Below are positions 833 to 62,420 of a stretch of 64,000 nucleotides of DNA, one piece after another. This stretch comes from SAR202 cluster bacterium (lineage in GTDB: Bacteria; Chloroflexota; Dehalococcoidia; Lucifugimonadales; UBA6952), in the NCBI GenBank assembly GCA_009392515.1, contig VFGE01000026.1, forward strand, positions 2,322-66,321, in the 5' to 3' direction. Position 1 is the stretch's first letter; each line of letters begins with the position of its first letter. Both the position numbers and the translations under genes were made by a program. Below the pieces are notes generated by a model. That model saw only the letters and a program-made list of their open reading frames with translations. It searched no databases and was not told where the DNA came from.

Positions 833-1453
833 ATGAAAGTTAAATTAGATATAAATGGATTGATTCCAATTATTTGTCAAGATTCAATTACTAACCAAGT
901 TTTAATGTTGGGTTGGGGCAATATAGAATCAATAAACAAAACTATTGAATCTAATAAAGTCTGGTTTTACAGTCGAAGTAGAAATGAATTATGGTTGAAA
1001 GGAGAAACTTCAGGTAATTTTCTTAATCTTATATCTTTAACTCATGACTGTGATAACGATGTGATTTTAGCTATGGTTAGACCAGATGGCCCTGCGTGTC
1101 ACAAGGGTGAAATTTCTTGTTTCCATGATAATTTTACCGGGAATATTACTGAAATAGAATATTCTGAAACAACTAGTAGTATCATTGATCAACTATTTTC
1201 GACAATTGGTAATAGAAAAAAAGAATTACCAAACGGTAGCTACACATCAAAACTATTTCAAGACGGCACACCTCGGATAGCTCAAAAGGTTGTTGAAGAA
1301 TCTGGAGAAGTAGCCATCGCGGCTACCCTTTCTGATAAGAATGAACTTGTAAATGAAACAGCTGATTTGATATATCATATTCTAGTTTTATTACAAAGCT
1401 CGGATGTAGAATTAAGCCATGTATATGAAGAATTAATTTCTAGAATGAAGTGA
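833..1453 (+). CDS. hisIE: bifunctional phosphoribosyl-AMP cyclohydrolase / phosphoribosyl-ATP pyrophosphatase
   Basis: 206-aa ORF. HisI core: WFYSRSRNELWLKGETSGN, DCDNDVIL, GPACHKGEISCF. This is followed by a HisE-like C-terminal half: TSKLFQDG..RIAQKVVEESGEVAIAA..ADLIYHILVLL. Confidence 0.9.
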   Translation: MKVKLDINGLIPIICQDSITNQVLMLGWGNIESINKTIESNKVWFYSRSRNELWLKGETSGNFLNLISLTHDCDNDVILAMVRPDGPACHKGEISCFHDNFTGNITEIEYSETTSSIIDQLFSTIGNRKKELPNGSYTSKLFQDGTPRIAQKVVEESGEVAIAATLSDKNELVNETADLIYHILVLLQSSDVELSHVYEELISRMK

Positions 1454-1456
1454 TTA

Positions 1457-1669
1457 ATGCATAAATGGGAAAAATATTGGATTGCTTCAGGAATAATCAC
1501 CATGATTGGATTTCTTCTGGTTTACTTTTATCCATCATTAGCTGAGCCCATAGGACTAGTTTTGGTATGGTTAGTTGGATTATTAGGTTTATTTACATTA
1601 ATTTCATTTATTATTTTTTTACTTATTAGATTTAAACAATTAAAGAAGACAAAAACAAAAAATGGGTAA
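1457..1669 (+). CDS. small hypothetical membrane protein
   Basis: 70-aa ORF with two strongly hydrophobic segments and a basic KKTKTK tail. It overlaps the gcvT start by 8 nt. I recognise no family. Confidence 0.45.
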   Translation: MHKWEKYWIASGIITMIGFLLVYFYPSLAEPIGLVLVWLVGLLGLFTLISFIIFLLIRFKQLKKTKTKNG

Positions 1670-5935: not shown

Positions 5936-6298
5936 ATGAAAAAAGATGTTGAAAACGAAATTGAAGAACTCTTAGAACAGATAGAAAATAAATATCAAAA
6001 TCATAATAATCCATCTTTGCTTGATTATGTAGTATCAATAATTAAGAAACTGAACATTGTAAAAATTTTCAGCTCGATATTAATAATAATTTTATCTATA
6101 TTAATGATCACCAATGGCGTTATTACTTTAGAATCTTTGGCAATATTAGCTGTTTTCTTAATTATTATTGTTATTGGTTTTTCAATATTTAGGCAATACC
6201 AAAGACCAGTGAAACGTTGGAGAGGTGAAATAATTGAAGATTATTACAACAGAAAAACAGTTATTCAAATATTAAAATCATTTTTTACAAAAAAATGA
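5936..6298 (+). CDS. hypothetical membrane protein
   Basis: 120-aa ORF with an acidic N-terminus followed by two hydrophobic helices. I recognise no family. Confidence 0.5.
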   Translation: MKKDVENEIEELLEQIENKYQNHNNPSLLDYVVSIIKKLNIVKIFSSILIIILSILMITNGVITLESLAILAVFLIIIVIGFSIFRQYQRPVKRWRGEIIEDYYNRKTVIQILKSFFTKK

Positions 6299-6300
6299 TT

Positions 6301-6741
6301 TTACCCTAAAAGTCCGAAACCACGTTTACGTATTGCAAGGTTTACAAACGTCTCTGATCTTTTGATTCCTGGAGCTGTAGCAATACTTGTTCTCAATAAT
6401 TTTCCTAATTCTTCTGTAGAAGGTACCGCAACCCAAACAAAAATATCGAAAGAACCTGTAGTTAGTGCGACATATTGGGTTTCTCGAAGGTTTGATAAGT
6501 AATTTGCCACATCGTCAATTTTGTCAGGGTCACTTTCAATTCCAATTAGCGCAACAGTGTTGTAGCCAATCTTTTGAGGATCGGGTATAGCCATAATTCT
6601 TACTGTTTCGTTTTGAATTAGTTTTCGTATTCTTCGGCGTATAGTACCTTCACTAACACCTAAATCTCTAGCTATTTCTGCATTTGAAATTCTACCGTTG
6701 TCACGAAGAATTTGAATGATTTTTTCATCAAGTCTGTCCAT
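6301..6741 (-). CDS. Lrp/AsnC-family transcriptional regulator
   Basis: 146-aa ORF. N-terminal HTH: LDEKIIQILRDNGRISNAEIARDLGVSEGTIRRRIRKL. C-terminal RAM/AsnC_trans_reg-like domain. Confidence 0.9.
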   Translation of the reverse strand: MDRLDEKIIQILRDNGRISNAEIARDLGVSEGTIRRRIRKLIQNETVRIMAIPDPQKIGYNTVALIGIESDPDKIDDVANYLSNLRETQYVALTTGSFDIFVWVAVPSTEELGKLLRTSIATAPGIKRSETFVNLAIRKRGFGLLG

Positions 6742-6766
6742 AAATTGTGCTTATCCTTTAATTAAG

Positions 6767-6784
6767 TTGTGAATATTATCACAA
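6767..6784. promoter_or_regulatory. near-perfect 18-bp palindrome TTGTGAATATTATCACAA, candidate operator
   Basis: 7 of 9 positions are self-complementary. The site lies 26-43 bp upstream of the Lrp/AsnC start codon, and AsnC-type regulators commonly autoregulate. Function is inferred only. Confidence 0.3.
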
Positions 6785-6795
6785 TTAAATTATAT

Positions 6796-6820
6796 AAAAA
6801 GTTGTTGGAAATAACAACAA
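6796..6820 (-). terminator. weak rho-independent terminator after moaE
   Basis: The minus strand reads GTTGTT-ATTTCC-AACAAC followed by TTTTTATAT, about 60 nt after the moaE stop. The stem is AT-rich. Confidence 0.4.
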
Positions 6821-6879
6821 TATATGAATTATAAAACTTGTTTATTAAATATATTAACGATATTCGTACATAAAGTGCA

Positions 6880-7308
6880 TTAAGAATTAATCCAAGATGC
6901 ACTATTTTCAAAGTGTTCTTTTTTCCAAATAGGAACATCTTTTTTCAGCCGATTTATTACGTATTGAATTGCATCAAATGAGGCTTGTCTGTGAGCTGAG
7001 GAAACTGACACAACAAGACTAGTTTCGCCAATATCAACCGTCCCTATTCTGTGAGCAACAATAATATCGTGTATTTCCCATCTTTCAAAAATTTCTTTTT
7101 CAATTTCTTCAAGCATTAATTTAGCCATAGGTTCGTAACATTCATATTCTAATTTTGTTACTTTTTGTCCGTCAGTATATTCTCTTGTTACACCTTCGAA
7201 TACTAAAATCGAACCACAGGATTCCTTTGATAATTCTTCGGTATATTTAGTAGTATTTAATATATTTTTTGTTATATATATCAAGTTTTCCCTTTTCTTA
7301 TCCTCCAC
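6880..7308 (-). CDS. moaE: molybdopterin synthase catalytic subunit
   Basis: 142-aa ORF with ILVFEGVTRE, VAHRIG..GETSLVVSVSSAHRQASFDA and PIWKKE. Overlaps moaD by 11 nt. Confidence 0.85.
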   Translation of the reverse strand: MEDKKRENLIYITKNILNTTKYTEELSKESCGSILVFEGVTREYTDGQKVTKLEYECYEPMAKLMLEEIEKEIFERWEIHDIIVAHRIGTVDIGETSLVVSVSSAHRQASFDAIQYVINRLKKDVPIWKKEHFENSASWINS

Positions 7309-7543
7309 TAGCTGGAGGGATCAGTGCCATTTCGTCATTATTATTTAATTTATAGCTATTTTCGACATATGTCATATTCACAGCAATCATAATGCTTTCA
7401 AAGTAAGGTGCAATGTCTGGTATTTCTTTTTTTACGATATCGATTACATCACTCACAATAGCTGTTTCAGACACATCTAATTGTAATGAAGATTGCTTTG
7501 CAATTTCTCTTAGATTTGCAAATAAAAGTATGTTTATTTTCAA
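7298..7543 (-). CDS. moaD: molybdopterin synthase sulfur-carrier subunit
   Basis: 81-aa beta-grasp-sized ORF ending in PPASGG (C-terminal Gly-Gly). Lies directly upstream of moaE. Confidence 0.75.
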   Translation of the reverse strand: MKINILLFANLREIAKQSSLQLDVSETAIVSDVIDIVKKEIPDIAPYFESIMIAVNMTYVENSYKLNNNDEMALIPPASGG

Positions 7544-7740
7544 TTGGTGCCTACTTTACATGGAGTTTGTTAATTATATTATATGATTTAGTAATATATA
7601 AATCAAAAAACTCTATCATAAGCTATTTACTTTATATCCTTGATTACATAGTTATAATAATCTTTTGTCTCATATAGATTGTTAAAAAACCAGTGAAATA
7701 GTAATATTATTTAAACTACACTTTACTAGGAGAAATTTAA

Positions 7741-10700
7741 ATGTTTGAACCCGTTAATTCTAGACCAGATTTTATAGGTCTAGAATATGAAATGATGAAA
7801 TTTTGGGATGAAGAAAGCATTGTTCAGCAATACTTAAATAAAAACAATGATGCAGATAAAAAATATTCATTTATTGATGGACCTATTACAGCAAATAACC
7901 CTATGGGAGTTCATCACGCATGGGGGAGAACTTACAAAGATTTATATCAACGATATAAAACAATGCAAGGGTATGAGCAAAGGTATCAAAATGGATTTGA
8001 TGGACAGGGGCTTTGGATTGAAGTTGAAGTAGAAAAAGAACTTGGTTTCAAATCGAAAAAAGATATTGAAAAATTTGGTATTGATAAATTTGTTGAATTA
8101 TGTAAACAAAGAGTAGATAAGTTTTCAGGTATACAAACAGAACAATCTATCCGCTTAGGTTATTGGATGGATTGGGATAACTCTTATCATACTAAATCAG
8201 ATGAAAATAATTACACTATATGGCATTTCTTAAAAGTATGTTATGAAAAAGGTCTTTTGTATGAAGGTAATGACGTTATGCCATGGTGCAGAAGATGCGG
8301 AACTGGTTTGTCCGAACATGAAATTGTTACAGAAGGATATCAAGAAGTTACTCATAAAAGTGTGTTTGTAAAATTTCAAATACAAAATACTGATAATGAA
8401 TTTTTAATAATCTGGACGACCACACCTTGGACTCTTCCTGCAAATATTGCTGCTGCTGTTAATCCTGAATCTATATATATCAAGGTGGAACAAAACCAAG
8501 AATATTATTATATTGCCAAAAATACTGTTTCATTTTTGAAAGGCCCATATGAAATTGTGGAAGAAATTAAAGGTGAAACTTTAGTTGGAATGGAATATAT
8601 TGGCCCTTTTGACAATTTAACAATACAGAAAGAAGTAATTCATAAAGTTATCCCGTGGGAAGAAGTGGGTGATGAGGGAACTGGTATTGTACATATTGCA
8701 CCTGGTGCTGGTAAGGAAGATTATGCTTTAGGAAAAAAATATAATCTAACAACTATTGCTCCAATTGATGATTCTGGAGACTATGTTGAAGGTTTTGACA
8801 AATATACTGGTATGAATGTGTCTAATGTAAATGATGAGATATTCAAAGAACTGAAAGAGAAAAATATTTTATACAAAATAGAACAGATTAAGCATAGATA
8901 TCCAGTTTGTTGGAGGTGTGGTGAAGAATTAGTATTTCGTTTAGTCTCTGAATGGTTTATTTCAGTTGACCCTTTTCGAGAACAAATTATGGATGTTACC
9001 CGTAAGATTAAATGGATACCAGAGTTTGGATTAGCTCGAGAATTAGATTGGCTAAAAAATATGGACGACTGGATGATTTCAAAAAAGCGATATTATGGCT
9101 TGGCTTTACCAATTTATAAATGTGAAGAATGTAACGAATTTGAAGTCATTGGATCTGAGTTTGAACTCAAAGAACGAGCAATTGAAGGTTGGGATTTATT
9201 TGAAGGTCACTCACCACATAAACCTTGGGTCGATTATGTCAAAATCGATTGTAAAAGTTGTAAATCTCCTTTATCAAGAATTAAAGATGTAGGTAATCCA
9301 TGGTTAGATGCAGGTATAGTTCCTTATTCAACTTTGAAATATAGATCTGATAAAGATTATTGGAGCAAATGGTTCCCAGCTGATTGGATTTCTGAAAGCT
9401 TTCCGGGACAATTTCGAAACTGGTTTTATTCTATGTTGGCAATGAGTACTGTTTTGGAAAATACAGAACCATATCAAAATGTGTTTAGTTACGCTTTGAT
9501 GCGCGATGAAAAAGGTGATGAAATGCACAAAAGCAAAGGTAACGCAATATGGTTTGAAGATGCAGCGGATGAAATGGGAGTTGACTCCATGCGTTGGTTA
9601 TATTCTCGTCAAAATCCAGCTAATAATCTTAACTTTGGTTTTAACGTTGCAAATGAGGTTAAGAGAAGATTTTTAATTCCATTATGGAATGTATATTCAT
9701 TTTTTGTAACTTATGCAAATATTGATGACTTCATCCCTTCCCAAGAAGATCGAAGATATACTAATTATTTGGATAGATGGATTATCTCTGAACTAAATGA
9801 ATTAGTAGAATTTGTGACAAATAACTTGGATAATTATGATTCGGCAGCAGCGAGTTATAAAGTTGAAGAATTTATAGAGTTGCTATCAAATTGGTATGTT
9901 AGAAGGAATAGAAGAAGATTTTGGAAGTCTGAAAATGACGAAGATAAACAACTTGCATATCAGGCTCTGTATGAATGTTTGAATACTTTGTGTCATTTAT
10001 TAGCGCCATTTATGCCATTTATAACAGATAAAATTTATCAAAATCTTGTTCGTTCACATAGTAATCAAAGTCCTAAAAGTGTTCATTTAGGTCATTGGCC
10101 GAAGCCTGATGCAAGTCTTATTGACCCCAATTTATCATCTCAGGTTAGACTATCAAAAACTCTTGTTAGTTTGGGTAGGTCTGTTCGACAAAAAACAGGT
10201 ATAAGAGTAAGACAACCTATTTCACAAATCATAATATCAGGAGCATTTATTTCTGATAATGAATTACAAGAATATATGAATCAACAAATTAGTGAAGAAT
10301 TAAACGTCAAAGAAGTTATTTTTGATAATCAGATAGAAGGAATTTTTAAATATATTGTAAATTTAAGGTATGATTTATTAGGCCCAAGGTTAGGAAATGA
10401 TATTAATATTGTTGCAAATGGCCTGAAAAATATAGATTCTGATTTAATTGCCAGAGAAGTGATATCTAAAGGTAGTGTTCAGATTGATGGTATTGATATA
10501 GATAAGGAAGAACTAAATATTCAGATTGAGGATATAAGCCATTTTTCTTCTATATATGAAAATAACTATGTAGTATCACTTAATACGACCTTAGATGCAA
10601 ATTTAATTAATGAAGGTATAGCAAGAGAATTTATTCATAATGTACAAAATATTCGCAAGGAAGCTGGATTTAATATCGAAGATAGAATCTCTATTGAATT

Positions 10701-10866
10701 TCAAGGTGAAAGAGAATTAAGTGAAGCTATACTACAGTTTGAAAAGTATATTAGCTCAGAAACTTTAGCTTTAAAGATTGAAGAATCTAATCTAAATCAC
10801 AGTGGTGATTTTAAATCTACAATCCTTGGTAAAGAGATTAGTTTGAATATTTCTAAAGTAATTTAA
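7741..10866 (+). CDS. ileS: isoleucine--tRNA ligase (long, type-2-like form)
   Basis: 1041-aa ORF with the HIGH-type motif PMGVHHAWGRT, the KMSKS-type motif EMHKSKGN, and an editing-domain insertion. Confidence 0.95.
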   Translation: MFEPVNSRPDFIGLEYEMMKFWDEESIVQQYLNKNNDADKKYSFIDGPITANNPMGVHHAWGRTYKDLYQRYKTMQGYEQRYQNGFDGQGLWIEVEVEKELGFKSKKDIEKFGIDKFVELCKQRVDKFSGIQTEQSIRLGYWMDWDNSYHTKSDENNYTIWHFLKVCYEKGLLYEGNDVMPWCRRCGTGLSEHEIVTEGYQEVTHKSVFVKFQIQNTDNEFLIIWTTTPWTLPANIAAAVNPESIYIKVEQNQEYYYIAKNTVSFLKGPYEIVEEIKGETLVGMEYIGPFDNLTIQKEVIHKVIPWEEVGDEGTGIVHIAPGAGKEDYALGKKYNLTTIAPIDDSGDYVEGFDKYTGMNVSNVNDEIFKELKEKNILYKIEQIKHRYPVCWRCGEELVFRLVSEWFISVDPFREQIMDVTRKIKWIPEFGLARELDWLKNMDDWMISKKRYYGLALPIYKCEECNEFEVIGSEFELKERAIEGWDLFEGHSPHKPWVDYVKIDCKSCKSPLSRIKDVGNPWLDAGIVPYSTLKYRSDKDYWSKWFPADWISESFPGQFRNWFYSMLAMSTVLENTEPYQNVFSYALMRDEKGDEMHKSKGNAIWFEDAADEMGVDSMRWLYSRQNPANNLNFGFNVANEVKRRFLIPLWNVYSFFVTYANIDDFIPSQEDRRYTNYLDRWIISELNELVEFVTNNLDNYDSAAASYKVEEFIELLSNWYVRRNRRRFWKSENDEDKQLAYQALYECLNTLCHLLAPFMPFITDKIYQNLVRSHSNQSPKSVHLGHWPKPDASLIDPNLSSQVRLSKTLVSLGRSVRQKTGIRVRQPISQIIISGAFISDNELQEYMNQQISEELNVKEVIFDNQIEGIFKYIVNLRYDLLGPRLGNDINIVANGLKNIDSDLIAREVISKGSVQIDGIDIDKEELNIQIEDISHFSSIYENNYVVSLNTTLDANLINEGIAREFIHNVQNIRKEAGFNIEDRISIEFQGERELSEAILQFEKYISSETLALKIEESNLNHSGDFKSTILGKEISLNISKVI

Positions 10867-10876
10867 TAATTGAGTT

Positions 10877-12064
10877 TTATAATCTAGGCTGTTCTTCTAA
10901 GGTAATTGTGATGTTTTGGATAGTTTTATCTCTAATTATTGTTACAATTATTTCTTGACCAATAGATAAATAACCTGTTTGTCTTAATGTTTGTAGTTCC
11001 TTCACATTTCTAATAGGTTTTTCATCAATTTCTACTATGATATCATTTGCTAGAAGCCCCCCTTTTTCAGCAGGACCATTAGGGGAAATAGATCTGATTA
11101 ACACCCCTTCTGTAACATTGAGATCAAGTTCTTCAATAATTTGTAAATCAATGTCTTGCGCACCTATTCCTATCCAGGGCCATATAACTCTTCCATTTTG
11201 AATTAATTGTTGCATAATCGTATGAGCTGTCTCTGAACTTATTGCAAATCCAATTCCGTCAGTACTTGATTCTACATATTTAATTGTATTTATACCTATA
11301 ACATCTCCATTTAAGTTTAATAAAGGGCCACCACTATTCCCAGGATTAATTACAGCATCCGTTTGTATTAATTCTGTTAAATATGTACTATCGATAGCTA
11401 ATTCCCTTTCTAGTGCACTTACAATACCTAACGTAACTGTAGGTTCTCCTTCAAGACCAATGGCGTTGCCTATGGCTACTACCCAGTCACCAACACGAAG
11501 ATTATTATCGGTTGATATAGACAATGGAGTTAGTCCAGATTTATTTACTTTAATTACAGCTAAGTCAGTAAGAGGGTCTTGCCCGATTAATTCTGCTTCT
11601 GATTTTGTTTCGTCATCAAATGATACAGTTATAACATTAGCGAGATCGACAACGTGGCTGTTAGTTAATATATATCCATCTTCTGAAATAATTATTCCAC
11701 TGCCTGCTCCTTCACTATCTTGTCTTCCGAAAAAGGTATTTTGTGTACTACTAATTACTATTGATACAACCCCTGGTCTAGTTAATTCAACCAAGTCAGC
11801 AATCGAAGGGAGTACATTTAAATTTGGTAGACTTGAGTTTGGATTATTTGTATCTGCTTTACTTTCTATTGATTTTTTAAGATTTTTTAACTCGTTTCTA
11901 ATATTAGTTATTTCATTAAGAAGTTGTTTATTTTCTTCAATAATTTCTGCATTGGTGTTTTCATTTTTATTATCTTCATTATTTGAGCGCAAAGAATCGC
12001 AACTAATGATTGTAGTCGACAATATCAATATTAAGGTTGTGATTATATATTTTTGTATATTCAT
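10877..12064 (-). CDS. HtrA/DegP-family serine protease with PDZ domain
   Basis: 395-aa ORF with an N-terminal signal and lipobox-like TIISC. Catalytic triad context: TNSHVV, DLAVIKV, GNSGGPLLN. C-terminal PDZ domain (GVLIRSISPNGPAEKGGLLANDIIVEID). Confidence 0.9.
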   Translation of the reverse strand: MNIQKYIITTLILILSTTIISCDSLRSNNEDNKNENTNAEIIEENKQLLNEITNIRNELKNLKKSIESKADTNNPNSSLPNLNVLPSIADLVELTRPGVVSIVISSTQNTFFGRQDSEGAGSGIIISEDGYILTNSHVVDLANVITVSFDDETKSEAELIGQDPLTDLAVIKVNKSGLTPLSISTDNNLRVGDWVVAIGNAIGLEGEPTVTLGIVSALERELAIDSTYLTELIQTDAVINPGNSGGPLLNLNGDVIGINTIKYVESSTDGIGFAISSETAHTIMQQLIQNGRVIWPWIGIGAQDIDLQIIEELDLNVTEGVLIRSISPNGPAEKGGLLANDIIVEIDEKPIRNVKELQTLRQTGYLSIGQEIIVTIIRDKTIQNITITLEEQPRL

Positions 12065-19991: not shown

Positions 19992-20438
19992 TTAAAAAGG
20001 TAGGTCGTCAGTTTCAATGGGTTTGTCAGAAGGTGTATCAGTAAAATTATAGTTATTTGAATCATTATTATCAAAAGTAGATGGTTCGTTATCTGAGGAT
20101 TGAGAAGGATTTCTGTCTAGAAATAATACTCTGCTTGCAATTATCTCATTTCTATATCGCGTTTGTCCGTCTTGTCCATCCCATTGTCTACTTTTCAATC
20201 TACCTTCTACAAAAGTTCTACGTCCCTTTGCAAGATATTGATTACATTGTTCTGCTAAAGCATTCCAAGCAACTACGGTAAACCATTCCGTTTCTTGATG
20301 TCTTTCCCCATCATTTGAAGTGTATGATCTGCTTGTAGCAACTCGAAATGATGTAACAGGGCTTCCACTAGGTGTGTATCTCATTTCAGGCTCAGTACCA
20401 ATATTGCCTATAACCATAATTTTATTAAAGCCTACCAT
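19992..20438 (-). CDS. ssb: single-stranded DNA-binding protein
   Basis: 148-aa ORF with an OB-fold N-terminus (NKIMVIGNIGTEPEMRYTPSG) and an acidic C-terminal tip DDLPF. Confidence 0.92.
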   Translation of the reverse strand: MVGFNKIMVIGNIGTEPEMRYTPSGSPVTSFRVATSRSYTSNDGERHQETEWFTVVAWNALAEQCNQYLAKGRRTFVEGRLKSRQWDGQDGQTRYRNEIIASRVLFLDRNPSQSSDNEPSTFDNNDSNNYNFTDTPSDKPIETDDLPF

Positions 20439-20469
20439 TCCAACCTCCTCAGCAATTCAAACGTGTTTA

Positions 20470-20754
20470 TCAATCTTTTGTGGTAAGTAAATGTCGCAAA
20501 ATATCTTCATTGCTACGTATATTTCCCTCAATAGTTGTGACCTTTGCAGGGTCTATATTGATTAAGGATGAAGCATAATTTCCTTCTCGAAATTTATTAA
20601 TGGGGTAGGCCAATTTTCTCATTCCCCATCTATCCCAATCTTCTATAGTTCCCTCATTAGAATTAACTAAAGTAGATAAATTATTTATAATTTTATCCGA
20701 ATTCTCCTGATCTACCTCGGGACTTATAACAATCACTAATTCATACTGTTTCAA
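20470..20754 (-). CDS. rpsF: 30S ribosomal protein S6
   Basis: 94-aa ORF with MKQYELVIVISPE...WGMRKLAYPINK. First gene of rpsF-ssb-rpsR. Confidence 0.92.
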   Translation of the reverse strand: MKQYELVIVISPEVDQENSDKIINNLSTLVNSNEGTIEDWDRWGMRKLAYPINKFREGNYASSLINIDPAKVTTIEGNIRSNEDILRHLLTTKD

Positions 20755-27147: not shown

Positions 27148-29475
27148 TTATTTGTTATTATCTATTGCTTCAAGCACTCTCGCAGGATTCATTGGTAATT
27201 GAGTTAATCTAGTGCCAATAGCTTGTTTAATAGCATTCGAAAGTGCTGCTAGAGGAGGCACTATACATACTTCACCAACTCCTCGGACGCCGTATGGATG
27301 ACTTGGATTTGCAACTTCAACAATTACTGTGTCAAGCATTGGTAAATCAAGCGCAGTTGGCATTCTGTAGTCAAGAAAACTTGCGTTCATCATTTTACCT
27401 TCATCATTGTAGAAATATTCTTCATTTAATGCCCAGCCAATTCCTTGTGCTACTCCACCTTGCATTTGCCCTTCGACATATGTTGGATGAATTGCCTTAC
27501 CCGCATCTTGTACAGAGGTATAACGTAAAATTGTTACCTTACCTGTGTCTGGATCAACTTCGACATCTACGATATGTGTTGCAAATGCATTACCTGGCGA
27601 TCCAGGGCTTACTGTAGCACGTCCAATAATTGGTCCCCCAGTAGCATTAAGTTTTCCTGCCATTTCTTTGAATGTCATTCTAAGTTGTGAATCAGAACTA
27701 TGTTTGATTTCTCCATTTTCATATTCAACATCACTTGTTTCTACATCCCAGATTTTGGCTGCTCGTTCAATCATTTGTCTTTTGATATCTAATCCAGCTT
27801 CATAGCAAGCAATACCAGTTTTAAAGGCAACTCCACTACCACCAGTAACTGAAGTGAATCCTATAGTATCAGTATCTCCAATTGATGGTTTGATATTTGT
27901 AGCATCAATACCTAATACTTCAGCTAGTTGCATTGAAACAGCTGTTCTAGATCCGCCAATATCTGGAGAACCTTCAACTAAATTAATTGTACCGTCAGCT
28001 GTGACACTTGCTATAGCACTTGATGGTCCACTTCCGTTAAACCAGAATCCTGAAGCAATACCTCTGCCTCGATATGGACCTTCTAACTTACTTTTATAAT
28101 GTTCATGTTCTTTAGCAGCTTGTAATGTTTCTAGAAAACCAATTTTGCCGAAAACTGGTCCAGTAGCTTGTCTGGTTCCTTCTTTTGAGCCATTAATTGC
28201 ACGAAATTCTAATGGCTCGATACCAAGTTTTTCTGCTAGTTCATCAACAGCAATTTCCATTGCAAAAGATGCTGTTGGAGAACCTGGTGCTCTATATGCG
28301 GTAGATTTGGGAAGATTTGTGCAAATATCATAACCTTCTATGTGAGCATTAGGTATATCATATGGAGCTGTCATACAGCGAGCTCCAGGCAACACAGGAG
28401 ATCCAGGAAAAGCCCCTGATCCATAATATAGTTTTGCCTGAACTGCTGTAATTTTACCATTAGATTTAGCACCTAATTTTATTTTGACATTAGTTGCTGA
28501 AGTTGGACCAGTTCCTTCAAACACTTCAGTACGGTTCAATGTTATTTTTACAGGAGAACCTCCTGATTTTTTTGAAAGCATAGCGGCAATAGGTTCGGAA
28601 TAAACTATTGTTTTTCCACCAAATCCTCCACCTATCTCCATTTGAATTGATTTGATTTTAGATTGAGGAATCCCTAATAACATTGCAGTTAAATCTCTCA
28701 TAGCAAAATGCCCTTGACTACTTGTCCACATTGTTAAATAGCCATCTGATCCCCATCTAACAGTACTTGTTTGAGGCTCGATGTATCCTTGATGTACAGC
28801 TTCAGTTTTTGTTTCTTTTTCAACAATAACATCGGCATCTTTGAAACCTTTTTCAATATCTCCAAGTGCAAATTCAAATTTATTAGCTAAGTTTGTTTGT
28901 TTATCTTTAGGAAGCTCTTCTGCACTAACGCCACCTGCCCGAATAGTGGTAGAGTTTATTGTGACTAGTCTATCATGAAGTATAGGTGCATCTGGTTTTA
29001 TTGCTTCTTCAGGACGCATAACTGGTTTAAGGACTTCATACTCAACTTCTATAAGATCTAAAGCTTGCTCCGCAATTATTTTTGATGTTGCCGAAACACC
29101 TGCAACTGCATGTCCTTTGAATAGCACTTTATCTTTAGCAATACAAAAATTACTCAAAAACATAGGATTTTGCATTGCACCTTCTCCTAAGTCAACAGCT
29201 AATCCATTGAGTATAGGAAAGTCATCAGATGTGACGACAGCTATTACACCAGGCAATTCTAATGCTTTTGTAGCATCAATTTTTATAATCTTAGCATGAG
29301 CGTGTGGGCTTCGAAGGATTTTACCGTGAATATATCCAGCAGGATGTACATCTCCTGAATAATTAGCAGCACCAGTAACTTTGTCTGTAGCATCGTATCT
29401 TTTGACTCTTTTACCAACAGTGTCATATTCAGTTTCAGATAATATTATATTTGATTTGTAATCTGGTTTTAGCAC
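27148..29475 (-). CDS. xanthine-dehydrogenase-family molybdopterin-binding large subunit (CoxL/aldehyde-oxidase-like)
   Basis: 775-aa ORF with a GTG start and GAGGAGG 5 nt upstream. The N-terminus VGKRVKRYDATDKVTGAANYSGDV is typical of large subunits. Also has STAYRAPGSP and the C-terminal YGVRGVGEV active-site Glu region. Confidence 0.88.
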   Translation of the reverse strand: MLKPDYKSNIILSETEYDTVGKRVKRYDATDKVTGAANYSGDVHPAGYIHGKILRSPHAHAKIIKIDATKALELPGVIAVVTSDDFPILNGLAVDLGEGAMQNPMFLSNFCIAKDKVLFKGHAVAGVSATSKIIAEQALDLIEVEYEVLKPVMRPEEAIKPDAPILHDRLVTINSTTIRAGGVSAEELPKDKQTNLANKFEFALGDIEKGFKDADVIVEKETKTEAVHQGYIEPQTSTVRWGSDGYLTMWTSSQGHFAMRDLTAMLLGIPQSKIKSIQMEIGGGFGGKTIVYSEPIAAMLSKKSGGSPVKITLNRTEVFEGTGPTSATNVKIKLGAKSNGKITAVQAKLYYGSGAFPGSPVLPGARCMTAPYDIPNAHIEGYDICTNLPKSTAYRAPGSPTASFAMEIAVDELAEKLGIEPLEFRAINGSKEGTRQATGPVFGKIGFLETLQAAKEHEHYKSKLEGPYRGRGIASGFWFNGSGPSSAIASVTADGTINLVEGSPDIGGSRTAVSMQLAEVLGIDATNIKPSIGDTDTIGFTSVTGGSGVAFKTGIACYEAGLDIKRQMIERAAKIWDVETSDVEYENGEIKHSSDSQLRMTFKEMAGKLNATGGPIIGRATVSPGSPGNAFATHIVDVEVDPDTGKVTILRYTSVQDAGKAIHPTYVEGQMQGGVAQGIGWALNEEYFYNDEGKMMNASFLDYRMPTALDLPMLDTVIVEVANPSHPYGVRGVGEVCIVPPLAALSNAIKQAIGTRLTQLPMNPARVLEAIDNNK

Positions 29476-32482: not shown

Positions 32483-32502
32483 TATAATTACAGGGGAAAA
32501 AT

Positions 32503-33192
32503 ATGACTACACCAATATCCGTTAATAATGATTTATTTGATCTAAGTCTCATTGATCTAAATCAACAAAAAGTATATTTAAATAGCTACAAAGGCAAAAA
32601 ACTCTGTATTTTTATGTGGGCGTCTTGGTGAGTATGTAGGGCACAATTGCCAGTTTGGCAAAAAACTTACAAGGAATTATTTGCAGATGATGATAACGTC
32701 GAATTTTTATCTGTAGCAATGGATGCAATTTATCATGATAAAGTTAAGCAATTTCATCAATCTGCTAAAGCAGAATTTACAACGTTAATTGATACTGATA
32801 ATAGTTTAAGTAAATTAATGGGTTTTAAAGTTGTACCTAATATATTACTGATTAATTCCGATGGTGAATTAGAGTACTGGAAATTTGGGAAAGCTGATAT
32901 AAGGAATGCATACTACAAAAATCTCATCAAAAGATGGATAAGTAGGGAAAAAATAAATATTTTACCTAAAGATAATTTTATTAATGCCAGTAATCAAAAT
33001 CATCAATTATCGTTAGGTAAATTCAATGAATATGTAAATACAGGTAATTTAAGTGTTAACGAAGTAAGGGGATTAGAGCTCGACAACATGATTGTAAGAA
33101 AACAATTGTGGGCAAAAGAAAATCCTGAAAAGTTTTACCAGGGAAATATTGATTCTGATTGGCAAAAACAAAATCTAGAAAAGGGGATTTAA
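32503..33192 (+). CDS. thioredoxin-fold redoxin (TlpA/ResA-like) with in-frame TGA at 32629-32631; candidate selenoprotein (alternatively a pseudogene)
   Basis: ATG 32503 is followed by 42 codons, a TGA, and then the same frame continues to 33192. The joined sequence ..KKLCIFMWASW-U-VCRAQLPVWQKTYKELF..EFLSVAMDA matches the redoxin active-site region, with the TGA at the position of the first Cys. A hairpin follows directly. Confidence 0.55.
32635..32671 (+). promoter_or_regulatory. SECIS-like stem-loop directly downstream of the in-frame UGA
   Basis: Lower stem: UGUAGG/CUUACA (one G-U pair). Internal loop: 6 nt by 4 nt. Upper stem: UUGCCA/UGGCAA (perfect). Apical loop: GUU. The structure starts 4 nt after the UGA. 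Confidence 0.4.
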
Positions 33193-33204: not shown

Positions 33205-33241
33205 TTATAACACAACACAACTAGTATTGATTGTGTTATAA
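33205..33241 (+). terminator. 11-bp perfect inverted repeat after the redoxin gene (possible terminator or processing hairpin)
   Basis: TTATAACACAA, a 15-nt loop, then TTGTGTTATAA. No U-run follows, so terminator function is uncertain. The 3' arm overlaps the putative tRNA promoter. Confidence 0.3.
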
Positions 33242-33242
33242 T
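33234..33242 (+). promoter_or_regulatory. extended -10 element TGTTATAAT upstream of tRNA-Asp
   Basis: Perfect TGnTATAAT, ending 15 nt before the mature tRNA 5' end. The -35 region is poor (AACACA). Confidence 0.35.
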
Positions 33243-33257
33243 GTCCGAGTTTCATTT

Positions 33258-33335
33258 GGCCCGGTGGTGTAGTTGGTCTAACATACCACACTGTCAATGT
33301 GGAGATCGGGGGTTCGAATCCCCTCCGGGTCGCCA
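33258..33335 (+). tRNA. tRNA-Asp (anticodon GUC), CCA encoded
   Basis: Manual cloverleaf. Acceptor stem GGCCCGG/CCGGGTC (one G-U pair). D arm GTGT..ACAT. Anticodon stem CCACA/TGTGG with loop CTGTCAA. T arm GGGGG-TTCGAAT-CCCCT. Discriminator G followed by CCA. Confidence 0.93.
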
Positions 33336-33381
33336 TCCAAAAATATTAAATCTCCGTTTTCTTATAATTAAGGAGATATAT

Positions 33382-34587
33382 ATGACACTGCCATTGCAAG
33401 GTTTAAAGGTTATTGATATGTCCCAAGTTTACTTCGGCCCTGGTGGAGCTGTGTATCTTGCTGACCAAGGTGCCGATGTTATAAAAATAGAAACTATTCG
33501 AGGCGATGCCATGCGTCATCGGTATACTACCCCATATCTAACACAATGGAACATGAGTAAACCTTTTTTATCATTAAATAGAAATAAAAAAAGTATTTCA
33601 TTAGATATTCGGACCGATGAGGGCAAAAAAATTGTTTCCCAATTATGTGAAACAGCTGATGTGTTTATATTGAATATGCGCCCGGGTACTGAAAAACAAT
33701 TTGAATTAGACTTTGAGAGCTTGTCTAAATTAAACCCAAAATTGATCTATGTATCGATCAGTGGTTTTGGAAGTGAAGGACCTGATGCAAGCCTTCCTGG
33801 ATACGATATAGTACTTCAAGCCAAATCTGGTGTTTTGTCATTGAGAAAATTTCCTGATGGAACTCCTGTACCTTATCCTATTATGTTTTCAGACATGTCG
33901 GGGTGTATGTCTCTTTCTTATTCGGTAATGTTGGCTCTTTGGGAACGTGAAAAAACTGGGAAAGGTCAAAAGATTGAGTGTTCATTATTCAATCAAGCTT
34001 TAGCAATGCAAATGCAGCAATTGATATGGATAGAAAATGATCAAGGAAGTCTTCCTGGAAACGCGCCATCAGCCATGGCTTCATGTTACGAATGTTTTGA
34101 TGGTAAATGGATAGCTATAGTAGTAATGGAATCTAATCAATGGGCGGGATTATGCCGTGTATTAGATATTGAACATTTAATTAATGACCCTGACTATAGT
34201 AGTTATGAAAATCGTGTGAAGAATGCATCTGATTTATCAGAATTATTTACAGCTATTTTCCCAACTAAAAACAGTGAATATTGGATAGATAAATTAAATT
34301 ATGAAGGTATCCCGTGTTCTATTGTACAAGAAAGAGATGATTTGCTAGACGATGCTCAAGTTATTTCAAATAAAATGATTGCTACAGATATACATCCCAA
34401 AGTCGGTAATGTGAGCTATGTTATGCCTCCATTTAAGATGTCACAGCATGATTATATTGAATCAGCTCGTTTGCCTGCTCCTTTGTTAGGAGAACACACT
34501 AAGGAAATCTTGAAAGATTTAGGGTATCATGACGAAGAAATTCAGTCTTTTTTAGATCGTAATATTGTTAATGAAAACCTAGAGTAA
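33382..34587 (+). CDS. family III CoA-transferase (CaiB/BaiF family)
   Basis: The N-terminus LQGLKVIDMSQVYFGPGGAVYLADQGADVIKIE is typical of the family. I use ATG 33382 (AAGGAG upstream). The ORF-track extension to 33241 runs through the tRNA gene and is spurious. Confidence 0.88.
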   Translation: MTLPLQGLKVIDMSQVYFGPGGAVYLADQGADVIKIETIRGDAMRHRYTTPYLTQWNMSKPFLSLNRNKKSISLDIRTDEGKKIVSQLCETADVFILNMRPGTEKQFELDFESLSKLNPKLIYVSISGFGSEGPDASLPGYDIVLQAKSGVLSLRKFPDGTPVPYPIMFSDMSGCMSLSYSVMLALWEREKTGKGQKIECSLFNQALAMQMQQLIWIENDQGSLPGNAPSAMASCYECFDGKWIAIVVMESNQWAGLCRVLDIEHLINDPDYSSYENRVKNASDLSELFTAIFPTKNSEYWIDKLNYEGIPCSIVQERDDLLDDAQVISNKMIATDIHPKVGNVSYVMPPFKMSQHDYIESARLPAPLLGEHTKEILKDLGYHDEEIQSFLDRNIVNENLE

Positions 34588-60749: not shown

Positions 60750-62420
60750 CTATAAACCTGTTGGTGCGGCTGGCGGAAAGTATTCTTGTACTGGAATCTC
60801 AATCACACTTGGCATTCCTGATTTTATAGCCTCATTTACTGCATCACTTATTTGATCAGGTTTTTCTATATAAAAACCTTTTGCTCCAAATACTTCTGCT
60901 AGTTTATCAAATCTTGGGTTCGTGAGATTTACTCCTACGTAATGCTCTTCATGAAGGTTTTTTTGCTGTGATTTTTCAGCACCCATACAATTATTATTTA
61001 ATACAATACTTACTAAAGGGATATTATGTCGTACAGCTGTGTTAATTTCACCACAAGTGTATAAAAATCCCCCATCACCATGGATTGAAATTGCAGTTTT
61101 GTTGGGACGTCCTAATTTTGTACCAAGACCTACACTGTATCCCATTCCCAATGCACCTTGCCCAACATAATTGAACATAGTTCTAGGGTGTTCAAATTTG
61201 AGCCTGTCATAAGATAAACCAGGAGCTACGCCTGCATCTATAGTAATCATTGCGTCTTCAGGGAAAATTTTATTGAATTCTGGAAAAACTTGTTGGGGCA
61301 TAATTGGGGTTTCTGATATATTTTCCTCTTCCTTTAGTCTGTTTAACCTAGATTGTGCCAAGTTTGTGAAAGTTTGCTTCCATTCCGGAAGACTATTTCC
61401 TTGAGGAGATATGGATGAGATGTGTTTAATAAGTTGCTGACCAATTGCAGCTGCATCTCCTACTATACCTACTGCTACTGGATAATTTCTTCCAATCTCA
61501 ATAGGGTCTATATCAATTTGGATTATTTTAGTTGATGGGTTAATGATACTATAATCCCAAGCAGTAGATGCTTGATTTATTCTTGTTCCTAGGGCCAGAA
61601 TAACATCTGCTTTATTCATTGCTTCATGAGCCTCTCCAGAACCTCTAGCTCCAGGAGGACCCACATAATTTGGATGGCTATTGGGGACTGCGTCGTGATG
61701 TCCATATGATGGTACAATCGCCATATCAAGTAACTCTGCTAATGCTACAGCTTCCTTAGACGCTTCAGAATCTAATACTCCACCACCCGCAAGCAATAGT
61801 GGGGATTTAGCATTTAACAACAATTGTGAAGCTAACTGGATTGATTGTTCATCTCCTTGAGTACGACTAATTGACCTATATGAATCTGGTTTTAAAAAAT
61901 CATCTGAAATCATTTCTTTATCTAAAAGGTCTCTAGGTATATCAAGTAAAACAGGACCTTGTTTACCAGAAAGAGCTGTTCTGAATGAATCTCGAATGAG
62001 CGACGGTACCCTAGCTGTAGTATTAGCCTGTACTGCAATTTTTGTGAGAGGTTTTAATATATTTACTAAATCGAATGCTTGAGAGCCGTCTCTTCCAATA
62101 TATTCCATAGCTGTATCACCAGATATTATTACTACAGGGGCTCGACCTTTATAAGCTAGAGATATTCCTCCAGCCAAATTAATTGTTCCAGCGCCAGAAG
62201 TTGTCATACACACAGATGGTTTTCCTGTAACTTTAGAAAAACCATATGCCATCAGAGCGGCACCTTCTTCATGTCTAGTGTCAATAAATTTAATATCTTC
62301 TCTACCATAAGTTTCAGTTACCATACTATTTGTGGTAAGGCCAGTTACACCAAATAAGTATTCAACTTGTTCAGCTCTTAATAACTCTATCACTGCTCGA
62401 CCGGCCTTCATGTTTTCCAT
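60750..62420 (-). CDS. thiamine-diphosphate-dependent enzyme (acetolactate-synthase-large-subunit-like; specific function unknown)
   Basis: 556-aa ORF with three-domain ThDP architecture and the ThDP motif GDGGFLYTCGEINTAVRHNIPLVSIVLNNN. No ilvN or ilvC lies next to it. Confidence 0.8.
   Translation of the reverse strand: MENMKAGRAVIELLRAEQVEYLFGVTGLTTNSMVTETYGREDIKFIDTRHEEGAALMAYGFSKVTGKPSVCMTTSGAGTINLAGGISLAYKGRAPVVIISGDTAMEYIGRDGSQAFDLVNILKPLTKIAVQANTTARVPSLIRDSFRTALSGKQGPVLLDIPRDLLDKEMISDDFLKPDSYRSISRTQGDEQSIQLASQLLLNAKSPLLLAGGGVLDSEASKEAVALAELLDMAIVPSYGHHDAVPNSHPNYVGPPGARGSGEAHEAMNKADVILALGTRINQASTAWDYSIINPSTKIIQIDIDPIEIGRNYPVAVGIVGDAAAIGQQLIKHISSISPQGNSLPEWKQTFTNLAQSRLNRLKEEENISETPIMPQQVFPEFNKIFPEDAMITIDAGVAPGLSYDRLKFEHPRTMFNYVGQGALGMGYSVGLGTKLGRPNKTAISIHGDGGFLYTCGEINTAVRHNIPLVSIVLNNNCMGAEKSQQKNLHEEHYVGVNLTNPRFDKLAEVFGAKGFYIEKPDQISDAVNEAIKSGMPSVIEIPVQEYFPPAAPTGL

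What the first reader, a model, noticed from the sequence alone, without database searches (positions are those of the whole stretch)
32503..33192. In-frame UGA at the active-site Cys position of a TlpA/ResA-like thioredoxin-fold gene: candidate selenoprotein missed by the ORF track
The ORF track lists only a 181-aa ORF starting at an alternative TTG at 32647. The same frame is open upstream: ATG 32503 (AGGGGA 5 nt upstream), 42 sense codons, TGA at 32629-32631, then uninterrupted to TAA at 33192. The joined translation reads MTTPISVNNDLFDLSLIDLNQQKVYLNSYKGKKLCIFMWASW-[TGA]-VCRAQLPVWQKTYKELFADDDNVEFLSVAMDA. This is the strand-1 / active-site / helix-1 layout of TlpA/ResA/DsbE-type redoxins, which typically read ..FWASWCxPCRxExP.. 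The TGA falls exactly where the N-terminal nucleophilic Cys sits, and a Cys follows just after it. Without the upstream piece, the 181-aa ORF would be a thioredoxin fold lacking its first strand and its redox motif. TGA is a genuine stop elsewhere in this window (802-804, 1451-1453, 6296-6298), so a TGA-sense genetic code does not explain it. Thioredoxin-fold proteins with Sec replacing an active-site Cys are a major class of bacterial selenoproteins. Three caveats apply. The spacing here is U-V-C (one intervening residue), not the canonical C-x-x-C. No selA, selB, selD or tRNA-Sec lies in this window. A recent pseudogene or a base-call error would look the same.
Basis: partly seen in the sequence, partly recalled or inferred. 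Interest (0 to 1): 0.8.

Follow-up and report, generated by a model that had tools for sequence, protein, structure and literature searches.

The report
Missed selenocysteine gene, known redoxin family
The in-frame TGA is real and almost certainly encodes selenocysteine in a thioredoxin-fold redox protein of a marine Dehalococcoidia bacterium, but this protein family has been listed as a selenoprotein family since 2008, so it is a gene-calling gap and not a discovery.

Summary
ATG 32503, 42 sense codons, TGA 32629-31, then an open frame to TAA 33192. The joined 229-aa product is a TlpA/ResA-like thioredoxin fold.

The TGA is not an error or decay. It sits at the same column in 77 of 79 genome loci from different species and at least seven phyla, with TGT (Cys) once and AGC (Ser) once. 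More distant homologues carry C-x-C there, so U-V-C is the family's normal spacing.

Fifteen nucleotides after the TGA lies a 5-bp hairpin with loop N-G-(U/G)-N'-U. It shows compensatory changes at synonymous codon positions across 78 distinct sequences, as expected for a bacterial SECIS (selenocysteine insertion sequence).

In a Latescibacterota genome the homologue lies between selA-selB and selD-tRNA-Sec.

The family is already published as "Prx-like (UGC-containing)" (Zhang & Gladyshev 2008). NCBIfam NF041054 (WAxxUGC_long) is a related model, but this protein scores below its cut-off.

The window matches MAG "Dehalococcoidia bacterium ALOHA_A2.5_17" at 91% nucleotide identity. It holds no selA, selB, selD or tRNA-Sec, and I could not check the rest of that genome.

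Verdict: genuine selenoprotein gene, a new member of a known kind, of modest interest.

The parts
32492..32497 (+). Shine-Dalgarno-like AGGGGA, 5 nt upstream of the ATG
   Evidence: Read directly. The G-rich core GG.GA is kept in all five aligned relatives, although L002 and L004 read TGGAGA.
32503..33192 (+). Complete selenoprotein gene: 229 codons including Sec43, plus the TAA stop
   Evidence: Translation. Pfam AhpC-TSA/Redoxin match across the TGA. AlphaFold2 model with pLDDT 88.1 and pTM 0.88 as one compact protein.
32503..32628 (+). The 42 codons upstream of the TGA that the ORF track missed: first strands of the fold plus KLCIFMWASW
   Evidence: Open frame with a conserved ATG in relatives and no stops or frameshifts. 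The frame upstream of the TGA is open for at least 35 codons in all 77 Sec-form genome loci.
32629..32631 (+). UGA read as selenocysteine (U43), the N-terminal redox residue of the U-V-C motif
   Evidence: TGA at this column in 77 of 79 genome loci, with TGT once and AGC once. Cys at this column in distant homologues.
32635..32637 (+). TGT, Cys45, the presumed resolving cysteine of U-x-C
   Evidence: TGY in all 78 aligned Sec forms; T7 and G8 are invariant columns.
32647..32661 (+). SECIS-type hairpin UUGCC-AGUUU-GGCAA, nt 19-33 counted from the U of UGA. It is built from the codons of Leu-Pro-Val-Trp-Gln. Its first codon is the TTG that the ORF track took as a start.
   Evidence: Folding of the window. 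RNAalifold on 78 sequences keeps exactly this 5-bp stem. Pair counts: 97.6% of cells paired; pair 19:33 is CG 58 / UA 16 / UG 4; intraloop pair 24:27 is UA 21 / CG 20 / GC 18 / AU 9; covariation 0.307 against 0.095 in shuffles, 0 of 500.
32635..32671 (+). Possible lower helix (UGUAGG 32635-32640 with CUUACA 32666-32671) that would extend the hairpin in this window only
   Evidence: Present in the minimum-free-energy fold of the window but not kept in the family consensus. This is weak evidence.
33085..33165 (+). Conserved C-terminal motif N-x-x-V-R-K-Q-L-W-A-x-E-N-P-E-K-F-Y...D-x-x-W-Q, residues 195-221
   Evidence: Invariant columns N195, R199, K200, Q201, W203, P208, K210, F211, D217, W220 and Q221 in alignment A3. 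The motif served as the search pattern that recovered 170 relatives. It has no counterpart in ResA/TlpA structures: Foldseek TM-score is about 0.5 normalised to the query and about 0.8 normalised to the target.

Best explanation
Window 32503-33192 is one gene for a 229-residue selenoprotein. It is a TlpA/ResA-like thioredoxin-fold oxidoreductase whose redox centre is Sec43-Val44-Cys45, followed by a helical C-terminal domain of unknown role.

Proposed recoding. Translation starts at ATG 32503. At UGA 32629 the ribosome does not terminate. Instead the hairpin 32647-32661, which starts 15 nt after the UGA and has a loop G 21 nt after it, is bound by SelB carrying Sec-tRNA(Sec), and selenocysteine is inserted.

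Proposed chemistry. The selenolate sits at the N-terminus of helix 1. It attacks an oxidised substrate (a disulfide or similar). Cys45 resolves the adduct by forming an intramolecular selenenylsulfide across the short U-x-C ring. An unknown reductant regenerates the protein.

Shown here: the reading frame; conservation of the TGA; Cys at the homologous position; the hairpin and its covariation; the fold; the family's link to sel genes in one phylum.

Inferred: actual Sec insertion in this organism, the catalytic cycle, the substrate, and the cytoplasmic location (from the absence of an N-terminal hydrophobic segment).
For: 1. The frame and domain span the TGA.

2. The TGA is conserved in close relatives at 99.7%, 91% and 87% nucleotide identity, and on Tara and other marine contigs. 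About 70 nt around it are invariant while the flanks vary.

3. Among 79 genome loci from Dehalococcoidia and other Chloroflexota, Acidobacteriota, Planctomycetota, Latescibacterota, Poribacteria, Armatimonadota and Rubrobacteraceae, the column is TGA 77 times, TGT once and AGC once.

4. More distant full-length homologues have C-x-C at the column.

5. The hairpin shows compensatory changes at synonymous sites. Leu/Gln codon pairs are CTG/CAG 60, TTG/CAA 17, TTG/CAG 4, TTA/CAA 1 and CTG/CAA 0. The third base of the Pro codon pairs with the third base of the next codon in all four Watson-Crick types. The loop dinucleotide is GU or GG in 81 of 82 sequences. This fits the published generalisation that bacterial SECIS hairpins have a 6-8 bp stem and a conserved loop G about 20 nt after the UGA (PMC4605307; PMC8659212).

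6. Four of five non-Sec homologues break the hairpin or its loop.

7. In L083 (Latescibacterota) the homologue lies between selA (TIGR00474, 592 bits) and selB (TIGR00475, 379 bits) on one side, and selD (TIGR00476, 347 bits, with its own in-frame TGA) and tRNA-Sec on the other. In L085 the homologue is followed by tRNA-Sec.

8. The family is published as a selenoprotein family (PMC2398784). NCBIfam NF041054 is the best hit.

9. Dehalococcoidia MAGs are among the most selenoprotein-rich bacteria in BSepDB (PMC13326102).

10. The fold is ResA/DsbF/TlpA-like.
Against: - No selA, selB, selD or tRNA-Sec lies in the 64-kb window, and I could not read the rest of this organism's genome.
- There is no protein-level evidence.
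- The hairpin alone is not statistically unusual in the single sequence (z = -0.95), and no Rfam SECIS model matches it.
- The hairpin's stem bases are partly forced by the conserved Leu-Pro-x-Trp-Gln peptide. Only the wobble-position covariation and the restriction of the loop are independent of coding.
- Selection on the 42 upstream codons is only weakly demonstrable among close relatives: 6-8 synonymous against 11 non-synonymous differences.
- One short-read contig (L009) has TAA at the column.
Confidence: 0.88

Rival explanations
1. The gene is a pseudogene or relic. On this reading the lineage lost selenocysteine decoding, so the TGA now terminates translation and the gene is decaying.
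For: No Sec machinery lies in the window. One related contig has TAA at the column. dN/dS for the upstream 42 codons is only moderately below 1 among close relatives.
Against: The TGA, the start codon, the ribosome-binding site, the frame and the hairpin are intact in every relative from 99.7% down to 87% nucleotide identity, and in 77 species-level genomes. No frameshifts or extra stops occur. About 70 nt around the TGA are invariant, the opposite of decay.
Confidence: 0.05
2. The ORF track is right. Translation terminates at the UGA, or never covers it, and a 181-aa protein is made from TTG 32647.
For: The ORF exists. Public gene callers produced the same 181-aa product: P0010-P0012.
Against: That product would lack strand 1 and the redox motif of the fold. 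TTG 32647 is the Leu codon of the conserved LPVWQ motif and lies inside the hairpin, with no ribosome-binding site of its own. In other genomes the callers pick different artificial starts right after the TGA, such as GTG or ATG of the x codon. This shows that these starts are artefacts.
Confidence: 0.03
3. UGA is read through without selenium. This would be either a TGA-sense genetic code (table 4 or 25) or near-cognate insertion of Trp, Cys or Gly.
For: Database proteins P0001-P0009 show Trp at the position.
Against: Those proteins are table-4 translations of DNA that has TGA. The look-up reports that they do not translate under table 11, and P0009 also reads through its real TGA stop. TGA ends 7 of 52 long ORFs in the window, and only one other TGA-joined candidate clears the overlap filter with sizeable ORFs on both sides, an unconvincing one. 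The column is Cys in homologues, not Trp. The family sits inside a sel operon in L083.
Confidence: 0.03
4. The TGA is a sequencing or assembly error for TGT, TGC or TGG.
For: None beyond the fact that a single base change would produce it.
Against: The identical TGA appears in independent assemblies from ENA, NCBI, Logan and GTDB genomes.
Confidence: 0.01

Closest known systems
'Prx-like (UGC-containing)' selenoprotein family of Zhang & Gladyshev 2008 (PMC2398784). [quoted passage not shown]
   Same: Same AhpC-TSA/TlpA-type fold. Same W-[AS]-S-W-U-x-C-R-x-x-L-P-[VG]-W-Q active-site stretch. BLASTP against JCVI_READ_1091145349036 gives 33% identity over 111 aa, E = 1e-21. One GOS member, JCVI_READ_1095901167516, also has the same C-terminal 'DPENWLIRKQLWAIETPEAFY...DYGWQ' motif.
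   Different: The middle residue here is Val, not Gly. Across 77 Sec-form genome loci it is A 37, G 15, V 9 and others 16, so 'UGC' describes only a minority. The window protein is short (229 aa) and has no N-terminal extension or signal-like segment.
NCBIfam NF041054 'WAxxUGC_long', ResA-like WAxxUGC motif-containing protein
   Same: Best NCBIfam hit: E = 2.2e-24, 86.4 bits, covering the redoxin domain at profile positions 85-193.
   Different: The score is far below the curated cut-off of 300 bits. The model is 354 positions long, and the N- and C-terminal parts of the profile are not matched. This is a related, shorter subfamily.
ResA / StoA / TlpA / DsbE(CcmG) / DsbF extracytoplasmic CxxC thiol-disulfide oxidoreductases
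   Same: Closest solved structures by sequence (E about 1e-9) and by fold (Foldseek E about 1e-10, target TM about 0.8). The WASWC...C-[RK]...P context is shared.
   Different: The redox motif is one residue shorter (U-x-C against C-x-x-C; see the gap in the alignment). It uses Sec instead of Cys. It has an extra helical domain of about 80 residues at the C-terminus. The window protein has no membrane anchor or signal peptide (by inspection). All ResA/TlpA/StoA NCBIfam scores are below their cut-offs.
Bacterial SECIS elements of formate dehydrogenase genes (E. coli fdhF type), bound by SelB
   Same: A hairpin directly downstream of the UGA inside the coding region, with a conserved loop G about 20 nt after the UGA followed by U (PMC4605307; PMC8659212). 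From memory, not verified here: the Moorella thermoacetica fdhA SECIS used for the SelB co-crystal reads ...UUGCC-GGUCU-GGCAA..., essentially the same as this family's CUGCC-N-G-U-N'-U-GGCAG.
   Different: The loop G is at position 25 here, not 23. GG replaces GU in about a third of members. No bulged U equivalent to U17 is evident. No Rfam model matches.

Membership tests
Bacterial selenoprotein gene (Sec-encoding UGA) | In-frame UGA at a position conserved among orthologues | tested here: met
   TGA at the same column in 77 of 79 genome loci and in all close relatives.
Bacterial selenoprotein gene (Sec-encoding UGA) | Homologues with Cys aligned to the UGA | tested here: met
   C-x-C in P0019, P0027, P0036, P0050, P0079 and P0135. 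TGT in L077.
Bacterial selenoprotein gene (Sec-encoding UGA) | SECIS hairpin just downstream of the UGA, with a conserved G in the apical loop about 20 nt after it | tested here: met
   A 5-bp stem plus an intraloop pair. Loop G is at nt 25. Covariation 0.307 against 0.095 in shuffles, 0 of 500. The criterion comes from PMC4605307.
Bacterial selenoprotein gene (Sec-encoding UGA) | selA, selB, selC (tRNA-Sec) and selD in the same genome | not testable with these tools
   Absent from the 64-kb window, and the rest of the genome could not be read. Family-level support only: a sel operon surrounds the homologue in L083, and tRNA-Sec follows it in L085.
Bacterial selenoprotein gene (Sec-encoding UGA) | Selenium shown in the protein (75Se labelling or mass spectrometry) | not testable with these tools
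   This needs an experiment.
UGC-containing Prx-like / TlpA-family selenoproteins (Zhang & Gladyshev 2008) | AhpC-TSA / TlpA-type thioredoxin fold | tested here: met
   Pfam PF00578 at 4.7e-14. The AlphaFold2 model matches ResA/TlpA.
UGC-containing Prx-like / TlpA-family selenoproteins (Zhang & Gladyshev 2008) | Sec in a U-G-C tripeptide | tested here: not met
   The window has U-V-C. A 96%-identical relative, P0006, has G at this position. The residue is free across the family. The spacing and both redox residues are met; the Gly is not.
UGC-containing Prx-like / TlpA-family selenoproteins (Zhang & Gladyshev 2008) | Sequence homology to published members | tested here: met
   BLASTP E = 1e-21 to a GOS member. 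The shared C-terminal motif is present in another GOS member.
NCBIfam NF041054 WAxxUGC_long (equivalog) | Score at or above the curated cut-off of 300 bits | tested here: not met
   86.4 bits, matching only profile positions 85-193 of 354.
ResA/TlpA/DsbE CxxC thiol-disulfide oxidoreductases | C-x-x-C active site | tested here: not met
   U-x-C, one residue shorter.
ResA/TlpA/DsbE CxxC thiol-disulfide oxidoreductases | Curated family score (ResA NF002854 cut-off 170; TlpA NF047696 cut-off 230; dsbE TIGR00385 cut-off 123) | tested here: not met
   53.6, 35.6 and 18.9 bits respectively.
ResA/TlpA/DsbE CxxC thiol-disulfide oxidoreductases | Export signal or membrane anchor (these proteins act outside the cytoplasm) | tested here: inconclusive
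   By inspection, the window protein starts MTTPISVNNDLFDL with no hydrophobic segment. Some homologues (L005, L083) do have hydrophobic N-termini. No signal-peptide predictor was available.

The most novel reading that the evidence does not exclude
The short form of this family carries a free middle residue (U-x-C), has no signal peptide in this window's clade, and has the conserved C-terminal 'IRKQxWAxExPEKFY...DxxWQ' domain. It might be a functionally distinct and still uncurated selenoprotein subfamily, not just a ResA/TlpA look-alike. Its C-terminal domain could be a dedicated partner- or substrate-binding module. Its placement between selB and selD in Latescibacterota could hint at a role in selenium handling itself. 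It would also document selenocysteine use in a streamlined, low-GC, open-ocean Dehalococcoidia lineage.
Probability: 0.15. Interest if true: 0.5.

Novelty: new member of a known kind. Interest (0 to 1): 0.25.

Why it matters
The practical lesson concerns annotation. Standard ORF callers split or truncate this gene. Public databases hold it either as a 181-aa fragment without its active site, or as a table-4 mistranslation with Trp at the catalytic position. Correcting it restores a redox-active selenoprotein to the gene set of an abundant open-ocean Dehalococcoidia lineage, and it implies that the lineage depends on selenium.

Three family-level points from this work add modestly to what is published:

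- The 'UGC' label is too narrow, because the middle residue is mostly Ala.
- The SECIS is written into the codons of a conserved Leu-Pro-(Val/Gly)-Trp-Gln peptide, with clear wobble-position covariation.
- The gene sits inside the sel operon in Latescibacterota.

None of this changes the understanding of selenocysteine decoding.

Tried and rejected
- Rfam at gathering thresholds over the whole window, and at E up to 10 around the TGA, gave only tRNA-Asp and snoRNA-type noise. There was no SECIS model hit.
- The single-sequence fold of the 72 nt after the UGA is not unusual (z = -0.95). The lower helix predicted there is not conserved in the family, so I do not rely on it.
A narrower one (A3) worked.
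- tRNA scans of 80 flanking regions found tRNA-Sec only in L083 and L085.
This says nothing about genome regions that were not fetched.
- A scan of the window for other TGA-joined ORFs gave two further candidates, 833-1669 (+) and 19992-20531 (-). Neither has a redox-motif context and I judged them to be noise.
- DNA for the Cys-form homologue P0050 could not be fetched.
- dN/dS on the 42 upstream codons among close relatives is too underpowered to be decisive.
- I considered an archaeal origin, because the tRNA-Asp starts GGCCCGG and the DNA is low in GC. I rejected it: the PhoR-type kinase, selA-type context and Dehalococcoidia matches show that it is bacterial.
- I did not use the metagenome scan or the remaining protein searches. 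They could not link Sec machinery to this particular genome.
Full report
**The observation.** AGGGGA lies at 32492-32497 and ATG at 32503. Forty-two sense codons follow and end ...KLCIFMWASW. Then come TGA at 32629-32631, GTA, and TGT (Cys), and the frame stays open to TAA at 33190-33192. The mechanical ORF list shows only a 181-aa ORF from TTG 32647. With the TGA read as Cys, the 229-aa product matches Pfam AhpC-TSA (4.7e-14) and Redoxin (4.8e-13) over residues 9-131, so the match runs across the TGA. TGA is a normal stop in this window. It ends 7 of 52 long ORFs, including cmk and lysA, which end exactly where their NCBIfam profiles end. A scan for other TGA-joined reading frames found nothing convincing.

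**Source organism.** The neighbouring genes are bacterial: a PhoR-type histidine kinase, split GcvPA/PB, type-2 IleS, glmS and lysA. GC content is 31-37%. A scan of one genome per GTDB species found the same locus in 'MAG: Dehalococcoidia bacterium isolate ALOHA_A2.5_17' (L010) at 97% protein identity and 91.4% nucleotide identity over 20.6 kb. It also found the locus in isolate LRMED-149 (L011) at 86.7% nucleotide identity. An ENA contig (L003) is 99.7% identical. The window therefore comes from a low-GC, open-ocean Dehalococcoidia (Chloroflexota) lineage.

**The TGA is conserved, not accidental.** The word-indexed protein search returned 'full-length' 229-aa proteins with Trp at the position, plus 181-aa fragments. 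The DNA under the Trp versions has TGA. The look-up reports that they do not translate under table 11, and one of them (P0009) also reads through its own terminal TGA. They are therefore gene calls made with translation table 4 on short contigs. In the five-way DNA alignment the TGA is present in every sequence. About 70 nt around it are identical even though the flanks differ at many synonymous and non-synonymous sites.

The exhaustive HMMER search found 3,562 relatives. Many representatives begin exactly one residue after the TGA column with 'MCREQLPVWQ'. The DNA of three of them shows an in-frame stop immediately upstream, preceded by the missing N-terminal half of the domain. That stop is TGA in two of the three; the third (L009) has TAA.

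Among the 80 best genome loci, 79 contain the region. The column is TGA in 77, TGT in one (L077, Terriglobia) and AGC in one (L080, Acidobacteriota). These genomes span Dehalococcoidia and other Chloroflexota, Acidobacteriota, Phycisphaerae/Planctomycetaceae, Latescibacterota, Poribacteria, Armatimonadota and Rubrobacteraceae.

**Cys homologues and the spacing.** More distant full-length homologues read C-T-C, C-R-C, C-Y-C, C-H-C, C-I-C and C-Q-C at the U-V-C position. Compared with the CxxC of ResA/Etrx, the alignment shows a single-residue gap. In the Sec forms the middle residue is free: A 37, G 15, V 9, N 4, T 3, S 3, R 2, K 2, D 1, I 1.

**The recoding signal.** Counting from the U of UGA, nt 19-33 form UUGCC-AGUUU-GGCAA in the window (32647-32661). 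The bases come from the codons Leu-Pro-Val-Trp-Gln. I aligned 78 distinct Sec-form sequences without gaps, and RNAalifold keeps exactly this 5-bp stem.

Part of the complementarity is a by-product of the conserved peptide, because CCN/UGG and YUG/CAR are naturally complementary. The wobble positions, however, are free of coding constraint, and they covary.

- Leu/Gln codon pairs are CTG/CAG 60, TTG/CAA 17, TTG/CAG 4, TTA/CAA 1, and never CTG/CAA.
- Leu is NTG in 81 of 82 sequences, although the genomes range from 30% to 73% GC.
- The third base of the Pro codon (nt 24) pairs with the third base of the next codon (nt 27): U:A 21, C:G 20, G:C 18, A:U 9, against 9 A·C and 1 G·G.
- The covariation score is 0.307 against 0.095 ± 0.011 in shuffles (0 of 500 reach it), and at most 0.114 in slid controls.
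- The two central loop bases are GU or GG in 81 of 82 sequences, so the encoded residue is only Val or Gly, with one Glu.

Among the five non-Sec forms whose DNA I could read, four break the stem, the 24:27 pair or the loop dinucleotide. At the protein level the loop residue in non-Sec forms is L, S, R, E, D or G.

The geometry agrees with the published generalisation for SelB-dependent SECIS elements: a stem of about 6 pairs and a loop G about 20 nt after the UGA (PMC4605307; G23/U24 in E. coli fdhF, PMC8659212). From memory only, the Moorella thermoacetica SECIS co-crystallised with SelB has almost the same apical sequence (UUGCC-GGUCU-GGCAA). I did not verify this in the library.

No Rfam family matches, and the single-sequence fold is not statistically unusual. 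The evidence for the hairpin is therefore comparative.

**Link to the Sec machinery.** The window has no tRNA-Sec and no selA/selB/selD homologue. The rest of this genome could not be examined, which is the main gap. At family level there is direct support. In L083 (Latescibacterota) the homologue lies between selA and selB upstream, and selD and tRNA-Sec downstream.

- selA: 6155-7549, TIGR00474, 592 bits.
- selB: 7546-9480, TIGR00475, 379 bits.
- selD: 10845-11879, TIGR00476, 347 bits, itself carrying an in-frame TGA at '...SCGG*ASK'.
- tRNA-Sec: 11934-12031.

In L085 the homologue is followed directly by tRNA-Sec. In addition, BSepDB lists Dehalococcoidia MAGs among the most selenoprotein-rich bacteria, with 49 and 46 genes (PMC13326102).

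**What the protein is.** An AlphaFold2 model built from a 20-sequence alignment is confident (pLDDT 88.1, pTM 0.88). Sec43 sits immediately before helix 44-59. Residues 1 to about 140 superpose on ResA, DsbF, DsbE/CcmG, StoA and TlpA (Foldseek E about 1e-10, target TM about 0.8). The helical C-terminal 80 residues have no counterpart there (query TM about 0.5). These residues carry the nearly invariant N-x-x-[IV]-R-K-Q-x-W...P-E-K-F...D-x-x-W-Q motif.

The most likely chemistry is thiol/selenol-disulfide exchange. Sec43 would be the attacking nucleophile and Cys45 the resolving residue, forming a selenenylsulfide. This is inferred from the fold and the motif and was not tested. The window protein has no N-terminal hydrophobic segment. 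Some homologues do, so the cellular location may differ between lineages.

**Comparison with what is known.** The family is already published. Zhang & Gladyshev (2008, PMC2398784) list 'Prx-like (UGC-containing)' with 46 GOS selenoproteins and 855 Cys homologues. Their supplementary sequences show the same '...TWASWUGCRxDVPVWQ...' core. BLASTP of one against the window protein gives 33% identity over 111 aa, E = 1e-21. One of their sequences also carries the same C-terminal 'DPENWLIRKQLWAIETPEAFY...DYGWQ' motif. The Sargasso Sea paper had already noted one U-x-C Prx-like sequence (PMC1088965). [quoted passage not shown]

NCBIfam has a curated model, NF041054 'WAxxUGC_long'. It is the window protein's best hit, but at 86 bits against a cut-off of 300 and over the redoxin domain only. 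The gene is therefore a member of the published family in the broad sense. It is not a member of the curated 'long' equivalog, and it fails the literal 'UGC' criterion because it has Val.

**Verdict.** This is a real gene that the ORF track truncated, and it is almost certainly a selenoprotein gene. It is a new member of a known kind, so interest is modest.

The incremental points are these:
- the variable middle residue of the U-x-C motif;
- the SECIS written into the Leu-Pro-(Val/Gly)-Trp-Gln codons, with wobble covariation;
- the sel-operon context in Latescibacterota;
- the implication that a low-GC oceanic Dehalococcoidia lineage uses selenocysteine.

Noticed in passing
window 33258-33335 (+); also L010-L023, L025, L029, L031, L040, L045, L048, L050: A tRNA-Asp (GTC) gene lies 66 nt downstream of the selenoprotein gene. 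The same gene-then-tRNA-Asp arrangement is kept in many Dehalococcoidia genomes whose protein is only about 40% identical.
   Followed up: partly
window 33205-33243: A perfect 10-bp inverted repeat, TATAACACAA...TTGTGTTATA, lies between the gene's stop codon and the tRNA. Its 3' arm overlaps TGTTATAAT, an extended -10-like sequence 16 nt before the tRNA. It could be a terminator, the tRNA promoter, or both. It is partly conserved in relatives.
   Followed up: no
window 33241-34587 (+): The listed 448-aa ORF overlaps the tRNA-Asp. Its CoA-transferase (CaiB/Frc-type) profile match begins at residue 48-52, so the real start is probably near 33385.
   Followed up: no
L009 126-128 (Logan contig SRR8561390_789091): One homologue has TAA instead of TGA at the Sec column, with an otherwise intact frame and hairpin (TGG TAA GTG TGC ... 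CTG CCA GTC TGG CAG). It could be a read or assembly error or a recently inactivated copy.
   Followed up: no
L083 6155-12031 (Latescibacterota JAYODI010000058.1); L085 924-1768: A compact cluster reads selA - selB - U-x-C redoxin - selD (itself with an in-frame TGA) - tRNA-Sec. In L085 the redoxin gene is directly followed by tRNA-Sec.
   Followed up: yes
P0001-P0009 (public protein records); L001 453-455; L002 442-444 and its terminal TGA: Public gene calls on short Tara/ENA contigs translated this gene with table 4. This gives Trp at the Sec position and, in P0009, an 11-residue extension past the true TGA stop. P0006, from the same clade, has U-G-C instead of U-V-C.
   Followed up: yes
window 27148-29475 (-): A 775-aa molybdenum hydroxylase large subunit of the xanthine dehydrogenase / aldehyde oxidoreductase family lies 3 kb upstream. 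It is below the cut-off for every specific NCBIfam model, including the selenium-dependent XDH model TIGR03311 (293 bits against 830).
   Followed up: no
window 60750-62420 (-): A thiamine-diphosphate enzyme scores highest against sulfoacetaldehyde acetyltransferase (Xsc) models, but below their cut-offs (381 bits against 620). It might relate to organosulfonate use in this marine lineage.
   Followed up: no
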